Notes: generated by a model from the sequence alone, not told the origin. A DNA stretch of 32,781 nt from a virus (IMGVR_UViG_3300033407_000522:1-32781), one strand, 5' to 3'; shown: positions 1 through 27,607, numbered from the stretch's first letter. Numbers and translations: made by a program.

Positions 1-126
1 CTCCTGCCCGAGAGCCTCGCCAGGCTCGGTGATGCTGAACGTCAGCGCCACCTGCTCCTTGCCCGTGCTGGTCGTGCCGAGGTCTGCTGCGACGCAGACC
101 GCGTTGTACTTGCCGTTGCTGATCAT
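1..126 (-). CDS. Probable ssDNA-binding protein (DUF669-like), N-terminal part; runs off the window edge
   Basis: ATG at 126 overlaps the upstream TGA (ATGA), with SD GAAGGAGG. Reads MISNGKYNAVCVAADLGTTSTGKEQVALTFSITEPGE. Position after a Sak4-type ATPase is typical for this SSB type. Confidence 0.6.
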   Translation of the reverse strand, partial: MISNGKYNAVCVAADLGTTSTGKEQVALTFSITEPGEALGQE

Positions 127-1223
127 CTCTGTCCTCCTTCGAGAGTTGCGGAAAGCTGGCTGCTGAGTTGCGCCAGCCGGCCCGGGTCACCCCGGACCTG
201 GTCGAACACGAACTGCGCCTTCTCCCGGATGTTCTTCGGGAGCGCTTCGATCTTCTCCTCGCAGCGCTTGACGAGGATGTCGTACGGTTCGGGCAGGCCG
301 TCGATCACCGCCTCGATGTAGTCCTCCCAGGAGAGAGGCAGCGGATCGGGCAGTGAGTTGCGGTTCTTCGCCGCGTATGCCGGAGAGGATCGGGTCCGGA
401 TGAACCGGGCATCGCCGGTGTCGATCACCTTGGCCTTGCCCTTGTCGCCCGGCATCTTGGCGGCGCGGATGTCGAACGTCATGTAGAGCACGTCGTCCGC
501 CCACTGGCGCCAGAGGTTCGCGGCGTTGCTGTTCTTCCCGGTCCACATGGACAGGTCGAACGTGTCGTAGTCGTCGCCGAGCGGGTTCGTCACCGTGTAC
601 TGCTTGGCGTGGAACAGCACGATGACGTGCATCCCGCGCTTGTGGCAGGCGTCGAGGGCTGCGATCAAGCGGCGCTGCTCCTGGAGCGACGCCGTGTAGC
701 CCTTCTGCCATCCGCCGCCCACCTGCTCGATGGTCTTGACGCCGGCCTCTCGGCTGAGGTGCTCGAAGAGCAGCCCTTCCGCCCAGTCCATCGTGTCGAG
801 CACGACGGTCTCCCGGTCGTGCTCCTGAGTTGCGACGTTCCAGGCGAGCGCCACGACATCCTCCCAGGTCGAAGGCACCGGGAAGACGAGCAGGTCGAGG
901 TCGGCCCCGTTGCTGGGCATGAGCTTGCGGTTCAGCCCCATCTCGGCGCAGATAAAGCCGGGCTTCTTGGCCATGGCCCCGAACGTGGTCTTGCCGACAC
1001 CGTCCGTGCCGTAGGCCACGATGCGCTGCGCTGGCTCGCCGCTCGCCGTGGTGACCACGGAGATGGGGGTCGAGTTCGACAGGTCCATCCGCTGTGCCGC
1101 GGACCCGCCGTTCGTGGGCTTCTGCGTGGCGGTCACCTCACCCGTGTTCGCCAGAACACAGGGGCTGCACTTCGGCACGAACTGAACGTGCGCGGCGCAG
1201 TGTTTGAGCTGTTCCATTGCCAT
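123..1223 (-). CDS. AAA_24/Sak4-like ATPase (phage single-strand annealing recombinase)
   Basis: Walker A YGTDGVGKTT, Walker B VVLDTMDWAE, GGW.KGY, W.D.V.Y and AKNR motifs; SD GGAGG before ATG 1223. Confidence 0.85.
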   Translation of the reverse strand: MAMEQLKHCAAHVQFVPKCSPCVLANTGEVTATQKPTNGGSAAQRMDLSNSTPISVVTTASGEPAQRIVAYGTDGVGKTTFGAMAKKPGFICAEMGLNRKLMPSNGADLDLLVFPVPSTWEDVVALAWNVATQEHDRETVVLDTMDWAEGLLFEHLSREAGVKTIEQVGGGWQKGYTASLQEQRRLIAALDACHKRGMHVIVLFHAKQYTVTNPLGDDYDTFDLSMWTGKNSNAANLWRQWADDVLYMTFDIRAAKMPGDKGKAKVIDTGDARFIRTRSSPAYAAKNRNSLPDPLPLSWEDYIEAVIDGLPEPYDILVKRCEEKIEALPKNIREKAQFVFDQVRGDPGRLAQLSSQLSATLEGGQR

Positions 1224-2312
1224 CTAAGAGTCCTCCTGTTTCAGTTCACGGTCCGGGTTCTCGAGCTTCTGGTAGAGCAGCGGATCCTCCAGGGTCGCTT
1301 GCTTGGTGCAGACAGGGAAGAACTCGCACATCTTCCGGTAGCGTTCGCACGCTCCGGGTGACATGGGGAACGTCCCCTTTGCGCGGTTGTGCTGGATCTG
1401 AAGGCCCGTCTGCCAGGCCATCTCCTGGAACTCATTCAGTTCTCCCTCCGTGCGCTGGATCTCTCCGCGCACGAAGTACTCGTCGACCTTGTCGCGGATG
1501 TCGTCCTTCAGACGGAGGCGGAACTGCTCCGGCGTCTCGTCCCGCTCGTGCTGTCCGGCGTACAACTCGCCGTCCCGGTGCCCGACGCACTTGTTCTTGC
1601 ACCGCTTGTTGCACTTGTACTTCTTCGACTCCTCCGGGGTCTCCCGGAAGGGCCGAAGCGCGGGCTTCTTCAGCACGTCGTAGATCACCCCCTGGACAGG
1701 CAGCTCACTGACCACCGATCCGCCGAGCCAGTAGCAACTGATCTGCGGATCAAGACCGAGGCCCTGCCAGTAGGTGGAGCCGGGTCCGATGTCCTGGCTC
1801 GAGGTCTTGTGCTCGACCACGAGGTGCCGCCCGTGCTCGTCGAGGACGCCGGCGTCGATCACGCCGGCGAGATCCCAGGTCTGCGACTGCCCGCCCGTCT
1901 CCGGGTTGATGTGGCGGATGCGGAACTGCTTCTCGACGTAGATGATGGTGTACCGCTGATCGCACCAGCGGACGTGGTAGCCGCGCATCAGTTCCTCGGC
2001 GCGCACCAGGTCGAAGGGGTCACACTCGCGGCCCGGGTCGCTCGCCCGCATGCCCTGGATCGCCATGCGCAGGGCGTTCAGCGGGTCCATGCCCCAGGAA
2101 ACAGGCTGTCCGATCTCCCTGTCTTGATGCTGTTCGGCGATGACCTTCATGGCCGACCACCACACCTCGAGGCCCGCATGCAGCAGGGTCCCGAAGCGGA
2201 GCGGGCCGGCGACGTCGGTCGCTCGGTAGCCGAGGTCATACTGGTAGTGGAAGAGCCGGTCGCACCGGTCCTTCACGGCCAGTCTGGTTTTTGTGAGTGG
2301 TTCTCGAGCCAC
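1224..2312 (-). CDS. PD-(D/E)XK exonuclease, Cas4/RecB-like, with probable Fe-S cysteines
   Basis: GTLLHAGLE, GVIDA, VVEHKT and Q..xY motifs; N-terminal Cys (RCDR) plus C-terminal C-x6-C-x5-C; GTG 2312 after GGGAG. Confidence 0.85.
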   Translation of the reverse strand: MAREPLTKTRLAVKDRCDRLFHYQYDLGYRATDVAGPLRFGTLLHAGLEVWWSAMKVIAEQHQDREIGQPVSWGMDPLNALRMAIQGMRASDPGRECDPFDLVRAEELMRGYHVRWCDQRYTIIYVEKQFRIRHINPETGGQSQTWDLAGVIDAGVLDEHGRHLVVEHKTSSQDIGPGSTYWQGLGLDPQISCYWLGGSVVSELPVQGVIYDVLKKPALRPFRETPEESKKYKCNKRCKNKCVGHRDGELYAGQHERDETPEQFRLRLKDDIRDKVDEYFVRGEIQRTEGELNEFQEMAWQTGLQIQHNRAKGTFPMSPGACERYRKMCEFFPVCTKQATLEDPLLYQKLENPDRELKQEDS

Positions 2313-2323
2313 GTCTGTCTCCC

Positions 2324-2438
2324 GTGAAAAAGACCCACCCACCCCCGCCTGGTAGCATGGAGAATGTGGAGAAAACTCGCCGGCAGGGGCGGGTGGGTGG
2401 TGAAGGTTCTGGGGCCATGCTCCCCGCAGTAGATCGAC
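2324..2438 (-). ncRNA. Candidate structured RNA or attenuator with anti-SD loop and U-tract
   Basis: Long imperfect stem (2335-2352 with 2380-2400), loop UUUUCUCCACAUUCUCCAUGCUA, followed by UCUUUUU on the minus strand. Confidence 0.5.
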
Positions 2439-2801
2439 TCAGTTGTCGGAGATCAACGGTCCGGGGTGATCGCCCGCCATGTAGATCTTCAGACAGCGCT
2501 CGCGGATCAGCGGCCAGACGCGCGCCGCCAGCTCGACGTACTCGTCGAACTGCGCGCACAGCTTCGGGCTGATCGTTTTCAGTAGCGGATCGAGATGCGC
2601 CTCGATCTTCGGGTTGAACTCCCGTGCGGTGAGGGCTGCGAGGGAGGCAGCCATGACCTGCTTCAGCGCGGCATCGAGCTTCTGTCTCTGCTCGAGCTGG
2701 CAGGCGTTGCTGAACGCCGAGACCGAGGTCTCCATCTGGAAGAGGGCGATCTGCTTGCGCGCTTCCTCGAACTCTTCCGGTGTCACGTCCTTGAAATTCA
2801 C
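2439..2801 (-). CDS. Hypothetical protein
   Basis: GTG 2801 with SD AAGGAG and GTGA overlap; alpha-helical composition. Confidence 0.7.
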   Translation of the reverse strand: MNFKDVTPEEFEEARKQIALFQMETSVSAFSNACQLEQRQKLDAALKQVMAASLAALTAREFNPKIEAHLDPLLKTISPKLCAQFDEYVELAARVWPLIRERCLKIYMAGDHPGPLISDN

Positions 2802-2911
2802 GTTGACGCTCCTTGCATCCACAACCAGATGATCACGACCCAGACCAGGAGCGCGATCATACTGATTGCCACGTTGTGAAGCGCGTTCTGAGGCGGAGGT
2901 CTCGTACCCAT
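2798..2911 (-). CDS. Small membrane protein (37 aa), not in the ORF track
   Basis: MGTRPPPQNALHNVAISMIALLVWVVIIWLWMQGAST; overlaps both neighbours (TAATG, GTGA). Confidence 0.65.
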   Translation of the reverse strand: MGTRPPPQNALHNVAISMIALLVWVVIIWLWMQGAST

Positions 2912-3072
2912 TATTGCCGGGCCTGCTTCTTGGCGTGCGCCTTGGCGCGCTTCCAGGTGGAGCGGTTGGTCAGGGACCAGCCGGCCTTGAGGCGGGCTTT
3001 GACGGCGGTGTCCTTGACGCGGATCACCTCCAGGCCCTGCCCGTCCTCGAGGTTTCGCTTCATGGTCTTCAT
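2911..3072 (-). CDS. Small basic hypothetical protein
   Basis: MKTMKRNLEDG...AKKQARQ; TGATG-coupled to the upstream gene. Confidence 0.65.
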   Translation of the reverse strand: MKTMKRNLEDGQGLEVIRVKDTAVKARLKAGWSLTNRSTWKRAKAHAKKQARQ

Positions 3073-3410
3073 CAGATGAAGTCTGCCGGGAAGTTGCTCT
3101 CGAAGGCCCGGCACTCCGCCTTCATCAGTGCGTCGGCGTGCTGGTCGAGGATCTGGTCCACGACTTCCTTGGGGAGCTTCGTCAGGGCATCGCCGATGAG
3201 CTGGGCGAGCTGTTTGATGCTCATGTAGGCGTCGGTCGGTCTGTACTCGTTCTCTCCGAGGGACACGCAGCACTCGCGCCCCCCCTTGCTGGTGTCGAGC
3301 AGCAAGACCGAGAGGTCTTCCTTGGGGCCGACCCAGATGGTGCCCCACCCTTCCAGGCGACCGTGTTCCATGGTCCCACGCTCGATGGTGGTGTAAGTTC
3401 CTCTACACAT
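3072..3410 (-). CDS. Hypothetical protein
   Basis: ATG 3410 with SD AAAGGA; tiles the operon. Confidence 0.7.
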   Translation of the reverse strand: MCRGTYTTIERGTMEHGRLEGWGTIWVGPKEDLSVLLLDTSKGGRECCVSLGENEYRPTDAYMSIKQLAQLIGDALTKLPKEVVDQILDQHADALMKAECRAFESNFPADFI

Positions 3411-3426
3411 AAGAGTCCTTTCTGTT

Positions 3427-3810
3427 CTAGTTCTCGTCGTCCTGCATGAGCAGCTCCGCCTCGCGGCGGACCATGCGGTCATCTGCTTGCTCGAAGAACT
3501 GCATGAGAGCCTCGAGCGCCGCTCGAGCGGCAGCTTCCGCGGCCGGCAAGAGCCGGTATGGACGTGGGCGGATCAGCGTCACGAGGTCGCAGCCCGGTGC
3601 AGCGGCCAGGAGTTCAGCCAGACGGTCACGCCTCTCGCTGAGGGTATCCATCCACCACTCGAGGCGACGTGCGACGCTCTCCACGGTGGTCGAGAGCATG
3701 TTCTTCTCAGCCCGCTCCAGGGCCCGCTCGTAGCGGGCATCCTCGGGCCGGTTACCGGGCATGCGAGACTCCTCGCAGCCGGGCGGTAGGTCCCAGCCGA
3801 ATCGTTCCAT
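3427..3810 (-). CDS. Hypothetical phage protein (GWDLPPGC/PGNRPED N-terminus)
   Basis: SD AAGGAG; tiles the operon. Confidence 0.7.
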   Translation of the reverse strand: MERFGWDLPPGCEESRMPGNRPEDARYERALERAEKNMLSTTVESVARRLEWWMDTLSERRDRLAELLAAAPGCDLVTLIRPRPYRLLPAAEAAARAALEALMQFFEQADDRMVRREAELLMQDDEN

Positions 3811-3811
3811 G

Positions 3812-3958
3812 TCAATCTCCTTTCTCGCCGCTGTCGCGGCGGCAGTGTTCTTCGTGGTCGTCGCCGGCCATGAGCCAGATTCCCACCCAGGCGAGAATCA
3901 GGGCGGCGAGCCAGACGAGCGCCAGGCCGAGGATCAGGTAGGCGATGGTGGTGGTCAT
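3812..3958 (-). CDS. Small membrane protein (48 aa), not in the ORF track
   Basis: MTTTIAYLILGLALVWLAALILAWVGIWLMAGDDHEEHCRRDSGEKGD; SD GGAG. Confidence 0.65.
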   Translation of the reverse strand: MTTTIAYLILGLALVWLAALILAWVGIWLMAGDDHEEHCRRDSGEKGD

Positions 3959-3961
3959 CAC

Positions 3962-4480
3962 TCAGTCTCCAGCAGTCCGGTTGCGCAGGTCCTGGAAATA
4001 GTTCAGGGTTCCGCGCAGCTCGATGTCATCTGCAAGAGCATCGGCAGCTGCCTTGACGGCGGCTCGTTCCAGGTCGTCATCGGAGCTGGTAGCGGTGATC
4101 CCATAGTCCGCCGCGACCTCCTGAACGCTCCGGCTGGCGAACCAGTCACCGGCGTCCCACTGCTCTCGCGACGCCTCGACGGTCATCCACGACTCCTGCG
4201 GGTCGCTGTCGTCGCCTGTGGATCGCTCGTCGTCTGCGAGGATCGTGAAGCCGAGCCGGTGCGCCTCCGCCCGGGCATCATCGATGGTCGCGTACTCTCC
4301 GTGCGCGGTCATGCACTCGTCGTTCGTGGTGCCGAGCCATCCATCGGTGCACGGCTCGTGCGACTGGTTCTTGCATCCAGGCTTGGCCCAGATCTCCATC
4401 CGGCGTGTGTCGCCGCGCCAGTTGCCGTGGTTGTCCTTCTTGTCCGGTCCCACGTACTCGGTCTCAATCAGGTACATCAT
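3962..4480 (-). CDS. Hypothetical acidic protein
   Basis: Open frame with SD GGAGGAG; tiles the operon. Confidence 0.75.
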   Translation of the reverse strand: MMYLIETEYVGPDKKDNHGNWRGDTRRMEIWAKPGCKNQSHEPCTDGWLGTTNDECMTAHGEYATIDDARAEAHRLGFTILADDERSTGDDSDPQESWMTVEASREQWDAGDWFASRSVQEVAADYGITATSSDDDLERAAVKAAADALADDIELRGTLNYFQDLRNRTAGD

Positions 4481-4743
4481 CACTCAGTCTCCTCCGGAGC
4501 CAGGCACGCACGCCCCTGGATCTCTAGCTCCGAGATCCACTCGCTGAGTTCCTCCTCGGTCACAAAGAACCAGCCAGAGTCTCCGGTCCCGTGCAGGATG
4601 CCGGAGGGGCACACTGAGACCGCGTCCCAGTTGCCCCACTCGGCCAGCGCCTGCTCCCACGTCTGGCCGCCGTCTTCGTTGGTCTCGCAGGCGTCCCAGT
4701 CCTCCCGGATCTTGAGGGCCTTAGCTGTTGCCGTCATCTTCAT
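4480..4743 (-). CDS. Hypothetical acidic, Trp-rich protein
   Basis: SD GGAGG; TGATG coupling at both ends. Confidence 0.75.
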   Translation of the reverse strand: MKMTATAKALKIREDWDACETNEDGGQTWEQALAEWGNWDAVSVCPSGILHGTGDSGWFFVTEEELSEWISELEIQGRACLAPEETE

Positions 4744-5156
4744 CAGTATTCCTCCTTCAACAAGATCGTCCCGTCAACACACCAGCAAGTGAACGGCAGC
4801 AGCTCCTCGGGAAAGTCGCTGTACCCGATGACCTGTCGCGCAAGCACCGTGGACTTGTTCGGCGTGTCGGACCAGCAGCGAGCAATCCAGCGCTGCCCAT
4901 CGCTGTGGCGCGCCAGCTCCCAGACCTGGAAGTTCCGCGTTCCGGCGAGCTTCCTGCGCACCTTCGGCTGCCAGGAGCCGATGAGGTCGATCAGCCAGTA
5001 AGCGCCGCACGTCTCCGCGACGTAGCGCATGCCCTCGGTGTAGACCACGGGCAGGAAGGTGTGCCGGAAAAACTGCTCCGATCCATTCGTCTGGCGCATG
5101 TACTCAAGCACCAGCTCGGCCTTCTCGGAGCTACTCGTCATCGTGTTTTCACTCAT
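4743..5156 (-). CDS. DUF6876-like protein
   Basis: YTEGMRYVAETCGAYWLIDLIGS, FQVWEL, QxIxYSDFP and terminal LLKEEY match my recollection of this family. Confidence 0.65.
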   Translation of the reverse strand: MSENTMTSSSEKAELVLEYMRQTNGSEQFFRHTFLPVVYTEGMRYVAETCGAYWLIDLIGSWQPKVRRKLAGTRNFQVWELARHSDGQRWIARCWSDTPNKSTVLARQVIGYSDFPEELLPFTCWCVDGTILLKEEY

Positions 5157-5159
5157 CTC

Positions 5160-5357
5160 TCATCTCCATGTCTCCGTTTTCCGAATCTCGATCTCCTCGC
5201 GGAGATCCACGGCGCAGGCCCTCAGCTCGCGCTTCAGGCTCTCGTCCTCCTCGCTCCCGCTGCCCTCCCAGCTCTCGTACTCTTCCGCCGACTCCACTAG
5301 CTCGTCCAGCGAAGTCGAGACGTGCACGCGGGGCTTGCCGCTGCTGTAGGTTCTCAT
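5160..5357 (-). CDS. Hypothetical acidic protein
   Basis: Starts in the junction repeat; tiles the operon. Confidence 0.65.
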   Translation of the reverse strand: MRTYSSGKPRVHVSTSLDELVESAEEYESWEGSGSEEDESLKRELRACAVDLREEIEIRKTETWR

Positions 5358-5554
5358 CACTCAGTCTCCATCATCGGAACAGGTTCGCGCTTGCGCAGCC
5401 GCGCAGCCGTCCTGATGCGGATGTCTCGCCCCGTGGCGAGGTTCGTCGCCCACCAGCCGCCGAGGTGGTGGACGGCGTAGATGCGGACCGTGGTCAGCCT
5501 GCCGCTGACCTTGGCGGTGTAGTCACCACCGAGTTCGATCTCGTGCTTGCGCAT
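5357..5554 (-). CDS. Small beta-rich hypothetical protein
   Basis: MRKHEIELGGDYTAKVSGRLTTVRI...GGWWATNLATGRDIRIRTAARLR; ATG 5554 with SD AGGAG. Confidence 0.75.
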   Translation of the reverse strand: MRKHEIELGGDYTAKVSGRLTTVRIYAVHHLGGWWATNLATGRDIRIRTAARLRKREPVPMMETE

Positions 5555-5580
5555 GCTCAGTCTCCTGTTGCTATCCGGTC

Positions 5581-5681
5581 GCCAATCCGGGTGAGGCGTA
5601 GAGGCGGGCCGGCCAGTGGAGAAATATCGCACGTCAGAGCCGACCCGCCAGGATTGCCTGTTCGGGAACGAAGACGTTCCC
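5581..5681 (-). ncRNA. Candidate structured intergenic RNA with anti-SD loop
   Basis: 11-bp stem 5603-5613/5639-5649 (G.U on the minus strand), outer stem 5583-5588/5651-5656, loop containing UUUCUCCACUG, extra hairpin 5664-5681. Confidence 0.5.
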
Positions 5682-5695
5682 CCGTGCGAACGAAT

Positions 5696-6073
5696 CTACT
5701 TTCCGAAGCTCAGGCGTCGACCACCGTGCACAATCATGCTGTGCGCAAATCGCAGATCCCCCAGCGCCACGGCTTCCTCTAACCTGATCGCGCAGGTTCC
5801 GATCCGCCGGAATTCATCCTCAGCGTAGCAGACGTCAACCATGGGTTGCGCGTTGCCAACGCAAACCCATTCACTCACAACAATTCCACCGTGAGCCGAC
5901 TTCGACCGGTACAGCTTCAGAGTCGTCTCGCCGTAGCCTTCTGGGTCCTTCCAGGTCGCCGTAGCATCGGGGCCCTTGTCCAGGCTGGAAAGCGCGATCA
6001 TGAAGAGGTGCGCTTTCTTCTCAGCGTAGACGACCTTTTCTTCCAACTCAGCCCGGGTCAACTTCGTTTTCAT
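5696..6073 (-). CDS. Hypothetical early protein
   Basis: ORF preceded by the conserved leader motif. Confidence 0.75.
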   Translation of the reverse strand: MKTKLTRAELEEKVVYAEKKAHLFMIALSSLDKGPDATATWKDPEGYGETTLKLYRSKSAHGGIVVSEWVCVGNAQPMVDVCYAEDEFRRIGTCAIRLEEAVALGDLRFAHSMIVHGGRRLSFGK

Positions 6074-6178
6074 TTTTCACTCTCCACTGCTACCAGCAGC
6101 ACAAGCGCTGCTCGTTGTTCGTTTCGCACAGTAGAGAGGGAAGTCGGGGCGCCCCTCGATAGGAGCGCCCCACGACGT

Positions 6179-6772
6179 TCAGTTGACGATCGGCATCAGC
6201 GTAGCCCTTCGGCCCAGCGCATCGTCGACATCCAGCCCGACCGGCTCGATCCCGATCGGCAGACTGTACGGGATCGGCTCGACGATCACCTTGCCGTCCA
6301 CGGCACGCCGCCGCTTGAAGCCGTTCTTCTTCAGCCGCAGCTCCACGCCCTCGACGCCGAAGGCCTGAGAGATGCGCCACAGAAGCGCCGCGTTGATCTG
6401 CAAGACCAGGTCGTCGTCGGCCTTCTCTTGCCAGACCTCGCTGACATGCGGAAACGTGCCCTTGAGCGCGTCGAAGGAGACCTGACCCAGCTTCTTCGTG
6501 AGAACGGAGACGTTCCCGTTCACGGTGATGCTGTGCCCCGTACCCTTCGGCTGAGCCAGAGCCATAGTCACCGCCGCCGCCGGCAGGATTGTCTCCGGCA
6601 GCTCCAGCTCTTCGTCACTCACCGACACAATCGGCACCTCGACGGCAATCCTGCCGTCCGTTGCCCTCAGCATGCCAGCCTTGAAGTCGACCTGGACGCC
6701 ACCAAGGGCGTACCGGCGGCTCGCCTCAGCATCGCAGACCTTTTCGATCTGCATTTCCTTGTAGAGTCGCAT
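6179..6772 (-). CDS. Truncated DNA polymerase III beta-clamp-like protein
   Basis: RYALGGV..., ATDGRIA, GTFPHVSEV, INAALL and terminal LMPI parallel the DnaN motifs R..L.GV, ATDGHRL, G.FPDY..V, FN..YL and MPM. Confidence 0.65.
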   Translation of the reverse strand: MRLYKEMQIEKVCDAEASRRYALGGVQVDFKAGMLRATDGRIAVEVPIVSVSDEELELPETILPAAAVTMALAQPKGTGHSITVNGNVSVLTKKLGQVSFDALKGTFPHVSEVWQEKADDDLVLQINAALLWRISQAFGVEGVELRLKKNGFKRRRAVDGKVIVEPIPYSLPIGIEPVGLDVDDALGRRATLMPIVN

Positions 6773-6885
6773 GATTCACTCTCCACTGCTACGGCAGGTC
6801 CTATTACCTGCTGTTGTTCGTTGTTCAGCTCGTGGAGAGGGATGGGTGCCCGGGCTGCACCTGCAACCCGGACCCCGAAGCATGC

Positions 6886-7155
6886 TCAATCGACGTCGAA
6901 CAGGATCGACCCACGGAACCGGACCGTCTTCCCCATCAGCTCCAAGGTCGTATCCATGCTCGACCAGCCACTGTCGACCAGCAGCGCGTACTTCTTCCCC
7001 GCCCGCTTGCCCTTCGTGCTCGTCCGCACCACCACCGCGTCCAGGTTCACCGGGAACTCGACCGTCAGGACCTTGCCCTTGTCGTCGATCTCGGCGTTCA
7101 GGACCGGGCCGCTCGTCACTCTGTCGACCAGCTTGATCTTCGTGCTCTTGCTCAT
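6886..7155 (-). CDS. Hypothetical early protein (beta-rich)
   Basis: ORF preceded by the leader motif. Confidence 0.75.
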   Translation of the reverse strand: MSKSTKIKLVDRVTSGPVLNAEIDDKGKVLTVEFPVNLDAVVVRTSTKGKRAGKKYALLVDSGWSSMDTTLELMGKTVRFRGSILFDVD

Positions 7156-7279
7156 GATCTACTCTCCACTGCTACCGGTGCGCGAAATTGCACACCATTG
7201 TCTGATCTCTGGAGCATCGGAACAGGCCCGAACCAGCCCTTTTCGGGCCGATTCGAGCCGATTCCACAACGCGTTTCCC

Positions 7280-7531
7280 CTACCCGACCCATCCCCGAAG
7301 GGACGGTCTCCAGTTCTTCGTGCAGTTCCGCAGGCTCACGCGCCGCGGCCGCTGCATCCGGCGAACTGCTTTCTCCAGCCCGGGCCAGTACTCGGTTCCG
7401 GAAACCTCGAACTTGTCGCCGTTCACGAGCTGCACACTTCGGCCCTTCGGCCGCTGCACCAGCTCTGTCTTGCTGACCAGCTCGCTCTCCGTCCTGGAAC
7501 CGTCCCTGCCGTACGTTACGATCGTCGCCAT
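7280..7531 (-). CDS. Hypothetical early protein, first gene of the leftward arm
   Basis: ORF preceded by the leader motif GGTAGCATGGAGA. Confidence 0.7.
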   Translation of the reverse strand: MATIVTYGRDGSRTESELVSKTELVQRPKGRSVQLVNGDKFEVSGTEYWPGLEKAVRRMQRPRRVSLRNCTKNWRPSLRGWVG

Positions 7532-8109
7532 TGTCGTATCTCCATGCTACCATGCCCGTTAGGGCGGAAAAGGTGTGGGATTCCTAGCTGCTACCCTTGC
7601 AGCATCGGATTCAGGGCGTCCCACCGCTACCCCGTAGCAGTAGATTCACTAACAGTAATCCCCAAGCGCCTTTACAGACCCTTGAGCCTTACTGTCGAGC
7701 GCCATTTCCAAGTTACGCTCGCTGCCGCTTCAAGGCGGCTCTCCCAGCCCACTGGTAACCTAGGGCGTGTATTGCCGGGTCTATGTCCTCGCGCCCAACC
7801 AGCACTTGCCGGCCACTCACACCAGAGTGTCATCGGGTCCCGTCTCGGCCAGTGTGCTGGCCACGGCTCGCCCGATCGGTGCGCGATTCTGCATCTGTGG
7901 GGGGAGCCGCTGCGGACCGATCTGGGGGATCGGGAGCGGCTCGACCCTTCCGCCATCCAACAACCGGCGCCGAACGGCCCGCCAAATGCAGCATGGAACA
8001 CGCACGAGGGGGGGGGTCGGTTCTGCACCTGCGCGCGGGCGCCAGGAGTCCCTTAAGTTGCCTGCTCGCAGTGGAGGGAGGGACATCTGGACGGAGGTGC
8101 GGCGGTCCT

Positions 8110-8125
8110 GGTTCCACGTGGAACA
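8110..8125. promoter_or_regulatory. parS: parS-type palindrome
   Basis: GGTTCCACGTGGAACA: perfect 14-bp palindrome, 15/16 match to the chromosomal parS consensus TGTTNCACGTGNAACA. Confidence 0.75.
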
Positions 8126-8215
8126 GGGAGTGATGGGCGGAGGGAGGGGAGCTGGGGAGCTGGTGCAGGGAGGGAGGGGTGCGGAGCTGGTGCAGGGAGG
8201 GGAGCGGAGGTGGGG
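8126..8215 (+). repeat. G-tract region with a 19-bp direct repeat
   Basis: GGAGCTGGTGCAGGGAGGG at 8156-8174 and 8183-8201; five G3+ tracts in 8126-8157. Confidence 0.8.
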
Positions 8216-8337
8216 AGCGGAGTTCGCCGTCCCGGGGGTCAGGTTGATGATAATGAGCGTGTCAAGTCTGAAAGGGAGGGGAGAAATGGAAAATCGTAGG
8301 TGCGACAACAAACCGCAGGTGAGGGAGAGAAAGGTGG

Positions 8338-8505
8338 TGGAAGTCGGACAGGAGGGGGCTGGAACTCGGACAGGTGTGGCGGATTGTCGCAGGGGTGGTT
8401 CAGGAACGGAGGCTGAGAGGGGGTCAGGATGGTACGGTATGGGTGTGGTGATTTGTCGCAGGCAGGAATGGAAGGCGGACAGGTTATTTGTGGAACTCGG
8501 ACAGG
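8338..8505 (+). repeat. Four iteron-like repeats TGGAANNCGGACAGG
   Basis: Starts at 8338, 8360, 8469 and 8491: two pairs, each spaced 22 bp. Confidence 0.85.
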
Positions 8506-8560
8506 TGGGGCTGGTAGGTTGTGGGCAGCTGGCGCGGCGGTTGGAGAGAGGGCTGGCTGA

Positions 8561-8842
8561 ATGACCGACCAGGACGACCGGCGGCTGACGCGGATTGAGG
8601 GGAAATTGGACACGCTGGGGGAGCTGCTGATCAAGACGACAGCGAGCTTGGACAGTCACATGGTGATGGAGGACGAGCGTTTTCGTCCGCTCGTGAGGAG
8701 CCTGGAGCACATCAGCCGAATCGGCACGGACATCGCCCTGCTGAAAGCGGCGGAGGAGCGGCAGACGTGGTGGAACCGGAGCATGGTGCTGGCGATCCTG
8801 GGGATCGTGGCGACGTGGATCGCAAGCAAGCTGAAGGGGTAG
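8561..8842 (+). CDS. Coiled-coil protein with C-terminal TM helix (XhlA/holin-associated type)
   Basis: RLTRIEGKLD... and C-terminal MVLAILGIVATWIA; SD GAGAGAGG. Confidence 0.65.
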   Translation: MTDQDDRRLTRIEGKLDTLGELLIKTTASLDSHMVMEDERFRPLVRSLEHISRIGTDIALLKAAEERQTWWNRSMVLAILGIVATWIASKLKG

Positions 8843-26224: not shown

Positions 26225-27607
26225 ATGTCACCGGTTGCGCAGGGCGCTACGCTCGACAACTCTCTGAACGTCCTTCAGATTCACTACGGGAAGCGTCTGC
26301 ACATTCAGACGAACGACCGGGTGAACATCTGGAACATGATCCCGAAACACCCGGATCAGCACACTGGCAGGTTCCGTCAAGAGAACCTGACCACGGGCTA
26401 TCCGGCGACCGGTGGTGCATTCGGTCCGGGGGCCTCGCTCCCGACGGCAGGCAACACGTCAGATGCTCTCACGAACATCTACCACTGCTACCTGTACTAC
26501 CCGATCAGCGTGGACTGGGATGCCTACCACCAGTCGAGCGGGAAGGCGTCCTTCGTGGACGTGATGACCCGCGAGATGAACCGGGTCAAGGCGTACATGT
26601 TCCTCGACCTCGAGCGCATGGTGCTCGGCAACGGGTCGGGCCTCCTGTCCGCGATCTCGGTCGTGACGGTGGGTGCCACCTCCCTGACCTTCGAGGTTCC
26701 GAACGAGTTCTCTCCGCGCTTCATCGAAGGACAGCGCATCGTGTTCTTCGCGCTGACCTCGGGTGAGGTGACCGAGACGTCCGCGGTTCGCGGGGTCCCG
26801 GCCGGCCAGTACCCCTACTACACGATCAGCAGCTCGGTCGAGGATGGGGCGACGACCACGAACTTCGCTCTCATCACCTGCACCGGGTCGGCGCCGGCCG
26901 GCCATGGCATCGCCGCGGGTGACGGGGCCTTCAAGTACGGCGCGATCCAGCCCTACGCGATCTCCGGCACGAACCACGCCGGGACCGAGCTGATGGGCCT
27001 GAAGGGCATCTGTTCGCAGGGTGCCCCTCCGCTTCGCACAGCGACCAAGGCGACCTACCCGGCCGTGGACACCTTCCAGGCGATCGACCCGTCCTCGGCC
27101 GGCTACTGGAAGACCCCGACGATCAACCTGTCGGGGGCCGAGCTGGACCAGACCTGGTTCGACAAGCTCGGCGTCCGCATGATCCGGCAGGGATCGACCC
27201 CTCCGGAAGATGTGCGGATGTGGGTGCTGAACCCGGTCCAGGAGGAGATCTACAAGCGGAACCTCTACGGAGGGGAGCGCTACCCGATCACGAGTTCGCC
27301 GCCCAGCTTCCCGACGGGTTCGGCCGACTCGATGAACGAGAAGCGGTACCTCCACTACGCGGGGCGCCCGCTCGTCTGCTCTCGGTTCTGCGACACCACG
27401 GAGATCTACGGCGTCGGCCCGGACATCTACCGGTACGACTGCAAGCCGTGGGGCTTCCACAAGCCGGGCTTCGGTTCGGGCGGGTCGATCTGGCACCAGG
27501 ACTTCGACCGTCGTGCGGCCGACCAGGCCGAGGCGTATGCCATCATGCAGTTTGGAACCACCGCGAGAAACCGGCATGCCCGTCTGACGGGAGCCGCTTC
27601 GAGCTAA
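26225..27607 (+). CDS. Major capsid protein
   Basis: 460 aa after the scaffold; DLERMVLGNGSGLL, ELMGLKGI and terminal RNRHARLTG; strong SD. Confidence 0.85.
   Translation: MSPVAQGATLDNSLNVLQIHYGKRLHIQTNDRVNIWNMIPKHPDQHTGRFRQENLTTGYPATGGAFGPGASLPTAGNTSDALTNIYHCYLYYPISVDWDAYHQSSGKASFVDVMTREMNRVKAYMFLDLERMVLGNGSGLLSAISVVTVGATSLTFEVPNEFSPRFIEGQRIVFFALTSGEVTETSAVRGVPAGQYPYYTISSSVEDGATTTNFALITCTGSAPAGHGIAAGDGAFKYGAIQPYAISGTNHAGTELMGLKGICSQGAPPLRTATKATYPAVDTFQAIDPSSAGYWKTPTINLSGAELDQTWFDKLGVRMIRQGSTPPEDVRMWVLNPVQEEIYKRNLYGGERYPITSSPPSFPTGSADSMNEKRYLHYAGRPLVCSRFCDTTEIYGVGPDIYRYDCKPWGFHKPGFGSGGSIWHQDFDRRAADQAEAYAIMQFGTTARNRHARLTGAASS

What the first reader, a model, noticed from the sequence alone, without database searches (positions are those of the whole stretch)
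2324..7644. Candidate antisense network: one RBS motif on four early genes, with complementary seeds on the same strand
Seen: the target (G)GUAGCA(G)UGGAGA is the SD region of the genes starting at 7531, 7155, 6772 and 6073. Its complement recurs on the same (minus) strand, and every copy I found is intergenic: UCUACUGCUAC (7634-7644), CUCUCCAC (6832-6839), CUCUCUACUG (6129-6138), UCUCCACUG (5614-5622), UCUACUGC (2426-2433), UCUCCAC (2366-2372) and UCUCCAUGCUACC (2351-2363). The last is a perfect 13-nt complement of 7539-7551. Known analogies are P1 C4 and P4 CI RNAs, which come from the transcript they regulate, and start-associated sequences of cluster K mycobacteriophages; the sequence here resembles neither. 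Inference: promoter-distal RNA elements fold back on, or act in trans at, the first early genes and silence them as a timer or immunity switch. Alternative: DNA-protein sites used in both orientations.
Basis: partly seen in the sequence, partly recalled or inferred. Interest (0 to 1): 0.8.

Follow-up and report, generated by a model that had tools for sequence, protein, structure and literature searches.

The report
Self-locking phage leaders plus antisense hairpin
An uncultured soil phage puts one private ribosome-binding motif before its first four early genes; two of these leaders are predicted to fold back and hide it, and a terminator-like hairpin 5 kb downstream carries the motif's complement in its loop, so it likely acts as an RNA feedback brake on those genes, though no transcript or conserved relative was found.

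Summary
All four targets and seven 'seeds' are present verbatim and are enriched beyond chance. They are not one class. Three (6832-6839, 6129-6138, 7634-7644) are predicted local anti-SD arms of their own leaders. The 6772 and 6073 leaders share one fold (8-11-bp lock on the SD, 12-nt A/C bulge, 6-bp hairpin). The 7531 leader is predicted bistable, open first and locked later. Two seeds (2351-2372) lie in the open loop of a 17-bp hairpin with a U-tract that ends the early gene block. That loop pairs 13-16 bp with all four ribosome-binding sites; one bulged G explains both motif variants. Those four starts rank top among 183 candidate starts, and the loop is the best non-self match among 16,378 25-mers. 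The 5614-5622 seed is a weaker paralogue; 2426-2433 is chance-level. Best reading: RNA-level translational control, with cis locks plus delayed antisense feedback from the operon's own 3' end, like OppZ/CarZ or C4 but not a member of either. No orthologue, covariation across genomes or RNA data were found. Similar motif-plus-antisense-loop pairs were noted in other phages in this scan.

The parts
7280..7531 (-). early gene 1, 83 aa, no family
7539..7551 (-). RBS motif, variant without the extra G (segment D of the gene 1 leader)
7564..7580 (-). segment C: predicted partner of the decoy in the locked fold
7619..7630 (-). segment B: degenerate motif copy, predicted decoy that captures the anti-RBS arm co-transcriptionally
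7634..7644 (-). segment A: anti-RBS arm, pairs with B (open state) or D (locked state)
7652..7695 (-). upstream hairpin of leader 1
6886..7155 (-). early gene 2, 89 aa, no family
7163..7196 (-). leader 2: 7-bp hairpin then RBS motif; SD largely open (185 of 200 shuffles lock it at least as well)
7219..7265 (-). 20-bp G-U-rich hairpin behind the gene 1 stop (stabiliser, processing site or terminator; undetermined)
6179..6772 (-). early gene 3, 197 aa; weak PHROG matches (phrog_3007 E 2.8e-8, phrog_947 processivity factor E 1.7e-4)
6770..6839 (-). leader 3: anti-SD arm 6832-6839, A/C bulge 6815-6826, inner hairpin 6794-6811, RBS motif 6780-6792; predicted locked
6844..6876 (-). GC hairpin behind the gene 2 stop
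5696..6073 (-). early gene 4, 125 aa, no family
6071..6138 (-). leader 4: anti-SD arm 6128-6138, A/C bulge 6116-6127, inner hairpin 6095-6112, RBS motif 6081-6093; predicted locked
6143..6173 (-). GC hairpin behind the gene 3 stop
5603..5649 (-). element E1: 11-bp GC stem enclosing the 5614-5623 complement; 5616-5630 is 13/15 identical to 2366-2380 of E2; weaker antisense candidate
5561..5575 (-). degenerate fifth RBS motif before the 65-aa gene starting at 5554
2326..2398 (-). element E2: 17-bp stem (2382-2398 with 2333-2349, two G-U pairs), open loop, U-tract 2326-2332; candidate terminator and antisense RNA
2351..2366 (-). E2 seed, 16 nt, pairs 13-16 bp with all four RBS motifs
1224..2312 (-). 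PD-(D/E)XK exonuclease directly behind E2 (its SD follows the U-tract)
123..1223 (-). Sak4-like ssDNA annealing protein

Best explanation
The first four early genes of this soil phage share a private extended Shine-Dalgarno motif that is likely a handle for RNA-RNA control of translation, at two levels: predicted cis locks in the leaders, and a predicted antisense loop in the terminator-like hairpin (E2) at the far end of the same gene block that would shut these genes down after a delay. Shown: the motif, its fixed spacing to ATG, the complements, their enrichment. Predicted by folding: leaders 3 and 4 hide their own SD behind an 8-11-bp stem with a 12-nt A/C bulge, preceded by a strong hairpin; leader 1 first folds open (arm A caught by decoy B) and relaxes to a locked state; leader 2 is open; E2 displays a 16-nt seed in an unpaired loop. 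Inferred: the early transcript is translated at once from leaders 1 and 2, and at a low, ribosome-standby-limited rate from leaders 3 and 4. When polymerase has travelled about 5.2 kb and made E2 (roughly two minutes at typical elongation rates, recalled), the stem-protected 3' piece accumulates and pairs over the SD of genes 1-4, most effectively 1 and 2. This gives a short pulse of the first proteins, while read-through past E2 feeds the exonuclease and Sak4 genes.
For: Specificity: among 183 mechanically called SD-bearing starts on both strands, the E2 loop's best partners after its own opposite strand are exactly 6073, 7531, 6772 and 7155 (-25.1 to -22.5 kcal/mol; next -21.5). Reciprocally, among 16,378 25-mers scored against the four RBS windows, E2 ranks first after the four targets' own antisense (mean -28.9; next -24.6; background -12.3 +/- 2.9). 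One seed accommodates both motif variants by a single bulged G. The seed is predicted unpaired (opening cost 3.1 kcal/mol); E2 folds at z -5.5, 0 of 200 shuffles as good. Net pairing after opening costs: 7155 -15.6, 7531 -12.3, 6073 -6.2, 6772 -3.0. Cis locks: SD opening 13.5 and 12.0 kcal/mol for 6772 and 6073, reached by 1 and 4 of 200 upstream shuffles; the -16..+6 window costs 15.0 and 14.5 against 2.8-9.9 for nine other starts. These two leaders have the same 31-nt anchor-to-anchor length and fold, with 5 of 6 inner pairs changed on both sides in that register and a C-G to U-G change in the lock. The minus strand folds better than the plus strand, by energy and z-score, in 6 of 6 spacers. 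Leader 1: open state -35.4, locked -44.2, heuristic barrier about 9 kcal/mol, open hairpin forms first.
Against: No orthologue, so no cross-genome covariation: none in IMG/VR patterns or proteins, in 80 exonuclease loci, 44 DUF6876 loci, 30 metagenome motif hits, or by covariance model in 100 of 175 loci held. L120, which shares two early genes, lacks the motif. The lock of leader 1 is not beyond shuffles (27 of 200) and leader 2 is not locked (185 of 200). E2 barely out-competes the cis locks of leaders 3 and 4, so its value there is unclear. The 5-of-6 compensatory count rests on two sequences and falls to 1-2 if a shared AGCAG is aligned with a one-base slide. No promoter was found for the operon or for E2, so the transcript boundaries are assumed. 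What opens the locks is not identified: no trigger RNA for the bulges stands out. The record is about 38% complete.
Confidence: 0.5

Rival explanations
1. E2 is an immunity or lysogeny repressor RNA like P1 C4 or P4 CI: made from its own promoter or by processing in the prophage state, it keeps the first early genes off and blocks superinfection.
For: Same pairing evidence as the best explanation. A single stable loop silencing the head of a lytic operon is what C4 does (PMC5320573, passages). No repressor family was hit among the ORFs scanned, which were a subset of the window's ORFs.
Against: No integrase or other sign of lysogeny among the ORFs scanned in this fragment. No promoter found near E2. 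No C4/CI fold or Rfam match. E2 lies 5.2 kb downstream of its first target, whereas C4 and CI lie in the leader of the operon they control (recalled).
Confidence: 0.15
2. Only the cis folds matter. The leaders are duplicated expression cassettes that dampen translation of toxic early genes, and E2 is an ordinary terminator whose loop is an inverted relic of an RBS cassette with no trans function.
For: Leaders 2-4 are clearly paralogous. The opposite strand of the E2 loop reads as two tandem RBS-like words. No conservation evidence for E2.
Against: A relic would copy one target. The E2 seed instead matches leader 1 exactly over 13 nt and extends further on leaders 2-4 through a G-U pair, is unpaired, and has a paralogue in E1.
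Confidence: 0.15
3. The motif is a DNA site for a phage protein (operator or stoperator type), used in both orientations.
For: A 13-bp asymmetric repeat with one full reversed copy, as for cluster K SAS, whose ligand is unknown (PMC3203893, passages).
Against: All forward copies overlap the SD at identical spacing. Reversed copies are partial and sit where they close RNA stems or in loops. Their deviations are C to U opposite G, tolerated in RNA pairing, although seeds were selected allowing G-U. Folding favours the transcribed strand in 6 of 6 spacers.
Confidence: 0.08
4. A phage RNA-binding protein recognises the ACAAY-hairpin-GUAGCA element, or a nuclease cuts in the bulge, and opens the locked leaders. 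The system is then an activation switch, and E1/E2 are secondary.
For: ACAAY, one base, a 6-7-bp hairpin with a 6-nt loop, one base, GUAGCA is kept in leaders 2, 3 and 4 although the stem sequence differs. Locks of 12-15 kcal/mol need an opener.
Against: No candidate protein identified. It does not explain the E2 seed. Standby loading on a hairpin plus single strand can open such locks without a phage factor (PMC6690012, abstract).
Confidence: 0.12

Closest known systems
3' UTR-derived autoregulatory sRNAs OppZ and CarZ of Vibrio cholerae (Hoyos et al. 2020, PMC7398697; passages read)
   Same: RNA from the terminator end of an operon pairs with translation-initiation regions of its own transcript as negative feedback without a transcription factor.
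   Different: Here a phage early block; four targets standardised by a shared RBS motif; seed displayed inside the loop of the terminator hairpin; targets carry their own cis locks; RNase E/Hfq dependence unknown.
C4 antisense RNA of phages P1/P7 and CI RNA of P4 (PMC5320573 passages; PMC3632133 passages; Rfam RF01695 listed in PMC2864571)
   Same: Phage RNA from the same strand as its targets; loop sequence occludes ribosome-binding sites at more than one site.
   Different: No three-stem-loop C4 fold, no Rfam match, one long hairpin, located 5 kb downstream, targets are four unrelated early genes rather than an antirepressor operon.
Start-associated sequences (SAS) of cluster K mycobacteriophages (Pope et al. 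2011, PMC3203893 passages; PMC11373665 and PMC12699233 passages)
   Same: 13-bp asymmetric motif in the RBS position, containing the SD core, a few bases before ATG of non-structural genes; four K1 phages also have a single reversed copy away from any start; function still unknown.
   Different: Different sequence; 4-5 copies here (fragment) against 11-19; upstream inverted repeats here support RNA pairing and differ between copies, whereas ESAS repeats do not and contain promoters; cis anti-SD arms are not described for SAS in the passages read.
5' leader of the MS2 maturation gene (PMC4615214 passages)
   Same: A metastable hairpin captures the upstream complementary sequence so that the SD is free until a long-distance interaction forms; this is the predicted behaviour of leader 1.
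   Different: RNA phage, unrelated sequence, experimentally proven; here prediction only, and the decoy is itself a copy of the shared motif.
Ribosome standby on tisB mRNA (PMC6690012, abstract and outline)
   Same: 5' stem-loop plus single-stranded stretch upstream of a sequestered RBS, as predicted in leaders 3 and 4.
   Different: There the antisense RNA binds the standby site; here the candidate binds the SD motif itself, and the single strand is a bulge inside the locking stem.

Membership tests
C4/CI antisense RNAs | three-stem-loop structure of about 77 nt; match to the Rfam C4 model | tested here: not met
   cmscan of the whole window to E 1 gave two weak unrelated hits, none in the elements; E2 folds as one hairpin
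C4/CI antisense RNAs | loop sequence complementary to RBS-overlapping targets on the same strand | tested here: met
   (prediction)
C4/CI antisense RNAs | target is an antirepressor/immunity operon | tested here: inconclusive
   genes 1, 2 and 4 have no Pfam, PHROG or PADLOC family; gene 3 has weak unrelated matches
C4/CI antisense RNAs | maturation by RNase P | not testable with these tools
   needs RNA ends
3' UTR-derived autoregulatory sRNA (OppZ/CarZ type) | lies behind the last gene of a block and ends in an intrinsic terminator | tested here: inconclusive
   17-bp stem plus U-tract behind the 2439 stop, but the loop is long, the consensus scan did not list it and the next gene follows at once
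3' UTR-derived autoregulatory sRNA (OppZ/CarZ type) | base-pairs with initiation regions of its own transcript | tested here: met
   (prediction; co-transcription assumed from collinear, tightly packed genes)
3' UTR-derived autoregulatory sRNA (OppZ/CarZ type) | released by RNase E, Hfq-dependent, stable in vivo | not testable with these tools
   needs infection RNA data
Cluster K SAS/ESAS | asymmetric 13-bp motif in RBS position, one orientation, close to ATG | tested here: met
Cluster K SAS/ESAS | SAS consensus sequence and 11-19 copies; conserved 17-bp inverted repeats (ESAS) | tested here: not met
   motif differs from the consensus quoted; 4-5 copies; inner repeats differ between copies
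MS2-type delayed-folding leader | metastable hairpin sequesters the anti-SD before the final long-range pairing | tested here: inconclusive
   predicted by prefix folding and barrier estimate; lock strength not beyond shuffles; kinetics not measured

The most novel reading that the evidence does not exclude
A protein-free timing circuit: the phage standardises the ribosome-binding sites of its first genes so that one sequence can be gated three ways, by a folding-delay switch (gene 1), by standby-limited cis locks (genes 3, 4) and by an antisense loop made only after 5 kb of transcription. Gene position then sets the length of the first-protein pulse. If so, start-associated sequences in phages generally, including the unexplained cluster K SAS with its lone reversed copy, are antisense address tags.
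Probability: 0.3. Interest if true: 0.8.

Novelty: new variant of a known kind. Interest (0 to 1): 0.5.

Why it matters
How phages switch off their first genes without a repressor, and what start-associated sequences do, are open questions (PMC11373665 and PMC12699233 call the SAS role unknown). This locus offers a compact, testable case: a 73-nt hairpin and four leaders of about 70-120 nt that can be assayed with reporters and compensatory mutations without the phage or host. The natural toehold-switch-like leaders, and one seed serving two motif variants, are also of interest for RNA design. Interest is capped by the lack of relatives and expression data, and because the motif-plus-antisense-loop pattern has turned up repeatedly in this scan.

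Tried and rejected
Orthologue searches were all negative: IMG/VR patterns (0; 1 hit, unrelated by inspection; 12 hits, none homologous); single-protein scans (0 of 21; 0 of 3); exonuclease-anchored loci (80 of 224 kept; no motif cluster; shared-RBS-plus-antisense test positive on 6 strands including this window against 8 for the reversed control, of 168); DUF6876 loci (44); GTDB genomes (3 loci); metagenomes (30 motif hits, none similar to the window); covariance model R1 (only its three training leaders in the window; 0 hits in 100 loci). Sequencing runs: no RNA holder listed. Contigs of three other DNA runs cover pieces of the region; those over leaders 3 and 4 are identical, so uninformative; a variant with a 21-base gap in 7164-7293 and one with 11 differences over 7323-7555 exist, but the tables were cut and their letters at the motif remain unseen. 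RNAcofold cannot model loop-loop pairing and was set aside. The pair count used a mis-registered structure string and is void; one search replaces it (its 7155 row ignores a bulge and is not used). A trigger RNA for the A/C bulges: none stands out. An internal promoter that would omit the anti-SD arm, T4 style: no sigma-70 site found and no shared upstream element by inspection; other promoter types not covered. A plus-strand E2 RNA acting as activator: disfavoured, since both wobble pairs of the stem and the U-tract work only on the minus strand. The 736-codon plus-strand ORF 5846-8056 has no Pfam match and is taken as a shadow frame. The ACAACGAACAAC match in L007 follows a promoter-like site and has no lock. 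A deeper protein search for gene 3 could not be run. Literature searches for a phage sRNA against a shared early-gene RBS motif listed no such paper; the library lacks most subscription journals, and no supplements were read (Pope 2011 Fig. S3 on the reversed SAS copies may bear on novelty).


Full report
Setting. The window is a whole IMG/VR linear virus record of 32,781 bases, estimated 38% complete. The best holder is a soil metagenome that may be its source. It is a tailed phage: terminase, SU10-like portal and adaptor on the plus strand; replication initiator, methylase, exonuclease and Sak4 on the minus strand. The finding covers a leftward block of about 15 small, tightly packed genes from 7531 to 2439, followed by exonuclease (2312) and Sak4 (1223). 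The host is unknown; one named exonuclease homologue is from a Myxococcales bin, and a parS-like palindrome at 8111-8124 matches the consensus given for Myxococcus xanthus, but that consensus is widespread.

Observation. The motif occurs four times forward, each with GGAGA seven bases before ATG, and once reversed. Exact complements of 8 nt or more number 4 in 794 intergenic bases against 0.15 in shuffles (0 of 2000 reach 4) and 0 in 6783 coding bases. With one G-U allowed the counts are 7 and 6 at 8 nt, and 4 and 0 at 10 nt. The long copies are therefore real; the shortest are not distinguishable from chance. The motif was defined after the fact, which inflates these figures somewhat.

The seeds fall into three classes. 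First, local arms. 6832-6839 and 6129-6138 pair with the SD of the gene about 45 bases downstream. The two leaders have one architecture: strong GC hairpin, anti-SD arm, 12-nt A/C bulge, two pairs, a 1x1 loop, a 6-bp hairpin with a 6-nt loop, then the motif. Between anchors both are 31 nt; 5 of 6 inner pairs differ on both sides in that register, and the lock has a C-G to U-G change. This is two sequences only, and a one-base slide of a shared AGCAG would cut the count to 1-2. Opening the SD costs 13.5 and 12.0 kcal/mol, reached by 1 and 4 of 200 upstream shuffles. Leader 2 (7155) keeps the inner hairpin but is open (185 of 200). In leader 1 the arm 7634-7644 has two partners: a degenerate motif copy at 7619-7630, which it captures first in prefix folding and which leaves the RBS free (-35.4), and the RBS itself in the minimum-energy fold (-44.2), where the decoy pairs with 7564-7580; the heuristic barrier is about 9 kcal/mol. 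That lock is not beyond shuffles (27 of 200), so the switch is a lead, not a result.

Second, the distal hairpin E2 (2326-2398): a 17-bp stem with two G-U pairs, an open loop and a U-tract, z -5.5. Its 16-nt seed pairs 13 bp perfectly with leader 1 and 15-16 bp with leaders 2-4 by bulging the extra G. Of 183 mechanically called SD-bearing starts, the four genes rank directly after E2's own opposite strand. Of 16,378 25-mers, E2 is the best partner of the four RBS windows after their own antisense. After opening costs the net gain is -15.6 (7155), -12.3 (7531), -6.2 (6073) and -3.0 (6772) kcal/mol, so E2 would act mainly on the two open leaders. E1 (5603-5649) shares 13 of 15 bases with the 5' part of the E2 loop and has a similar stem-enclosed position, but its pairing score (-23.6) is within the upper background. 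Third, 2426-2433, 8068-8076 and 7988-7998 are background-level.

RNA or DNA. In all six spacers the minus strand folds better than the plus strand in energy and z-score. Deviations in the arms are G-U compatible, and the forward copies sit on the SD. A DNA site used in both orientations explains none of this well, but is not excluded.

Mechanism. I commit to delayed negative feedback (0.5): a pulse of the first proteins from the nascent transcript, damped by cis locks, ended when the operon's own 3' hairpin appears and accumulates. Sequence, spacing and enrichment are shown; folds and duplexes are predicted; transcription units, processing, timing and any effect on translation are inferred. 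An immunity role (0.15), cis-only control with a functionless loop (0.15), a protein or nuclease opener (0.12) and DNA sites (0.08) remain.

Relatives. None carries the system in what could be searched. The nearest exonuclease relatives with DNA on hand are 33-48% identical. L120 shares gene 3 (30%) and the DUF6876 gene (51%) but has other leaders. The absence reflects distance: this neither supports nor refutes function.

Comparison. It works most like OppZ/CarZ (PMC7398697, passages) and C4/CI (PMC5320573, PMC3632133, passages) but matches no Rfam family. It looks like cluster K SAS, including the lone reversed copy (PMC3203893, passages), with another sequence. Leader 1 resembles the MS2 maturation leader (PMC4615214, passages), and leaders 3 and 4 the tisB standby arrangement (PMC6690012, abstract). 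PMC5415839 (one passage), PMC11373665, PMC12699233, PMC2864571 and PMC3899335 were seen as passages; other papers only as search listings. Three searches listed no paper on a phage sRNA against a shared early-gene RBS motif. Eight earlier notes of this scan describe such motif-plus-loop pairs in other phages; they are unchecked AI notes and not independent support, but they make this one more case of a recurring pattern. What is particular here is the cis locks and the position of the antisense loop at the 3' end of the targets' own gene block.

Verdict. Real, RNA-level and probably regulatory; a new variant of known antisense control; unproven for lack of relatives and transcripts. Interest 0.5.

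Noticed in passing
window 8111-8124: Perfect parS-like palindrome in the non-coding region before the early block (0.11 expected by chance); also one copy each in exonuclease relatives L030, L032 and L078. May let these phage genomes use the host ParB.
   Followed up: partly
window 5556-5565, 5360-5369, 4483-4492, 3961-3970 (minus): A second repeated start motif, GGAGACTGAG, mostly with overlapping stop and start codons, before four later early genes; no antisense copy of 8 nt or more on the same strand. Probably a translational-coupling cassette.
   Followed up: partly
window 7700-8560: Non-coding region with a sharp GC-skew flip, pyrimidine tracts and three 21-nt direct repeats at 8338, 8360, 8491; candidate origin, genome end or promoter region.
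   Followed up: no
L120 4816-4829 and 6486-6499: A phage with homologues of gene 3 and the DUF6876 gene ahead of an integrase-like and an RNA-polymerase-like ORF (read by eye) repeats its own 14-nt A/C-rich motif behind hairpins in two leaders.
   Followed up: no
window 26479-26491: An 11-nt exact complement of the motif on the plus strand inside the late ORF 26225-27607; probably chance, but it would be on late mRNA.
   Followed up: partly
window 8561-8842 (plus): Isolated holin-like gene (phrog_689, E 1.1e-4) between two leftward blocks, far from the late genes.
   Followed up: no
window 7164-7293: A contig from run X2 shows a 21-base gap against this spacer: a natural variant of leader 2 or its upstream hairpin, letters unseen.
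   Followed up: no
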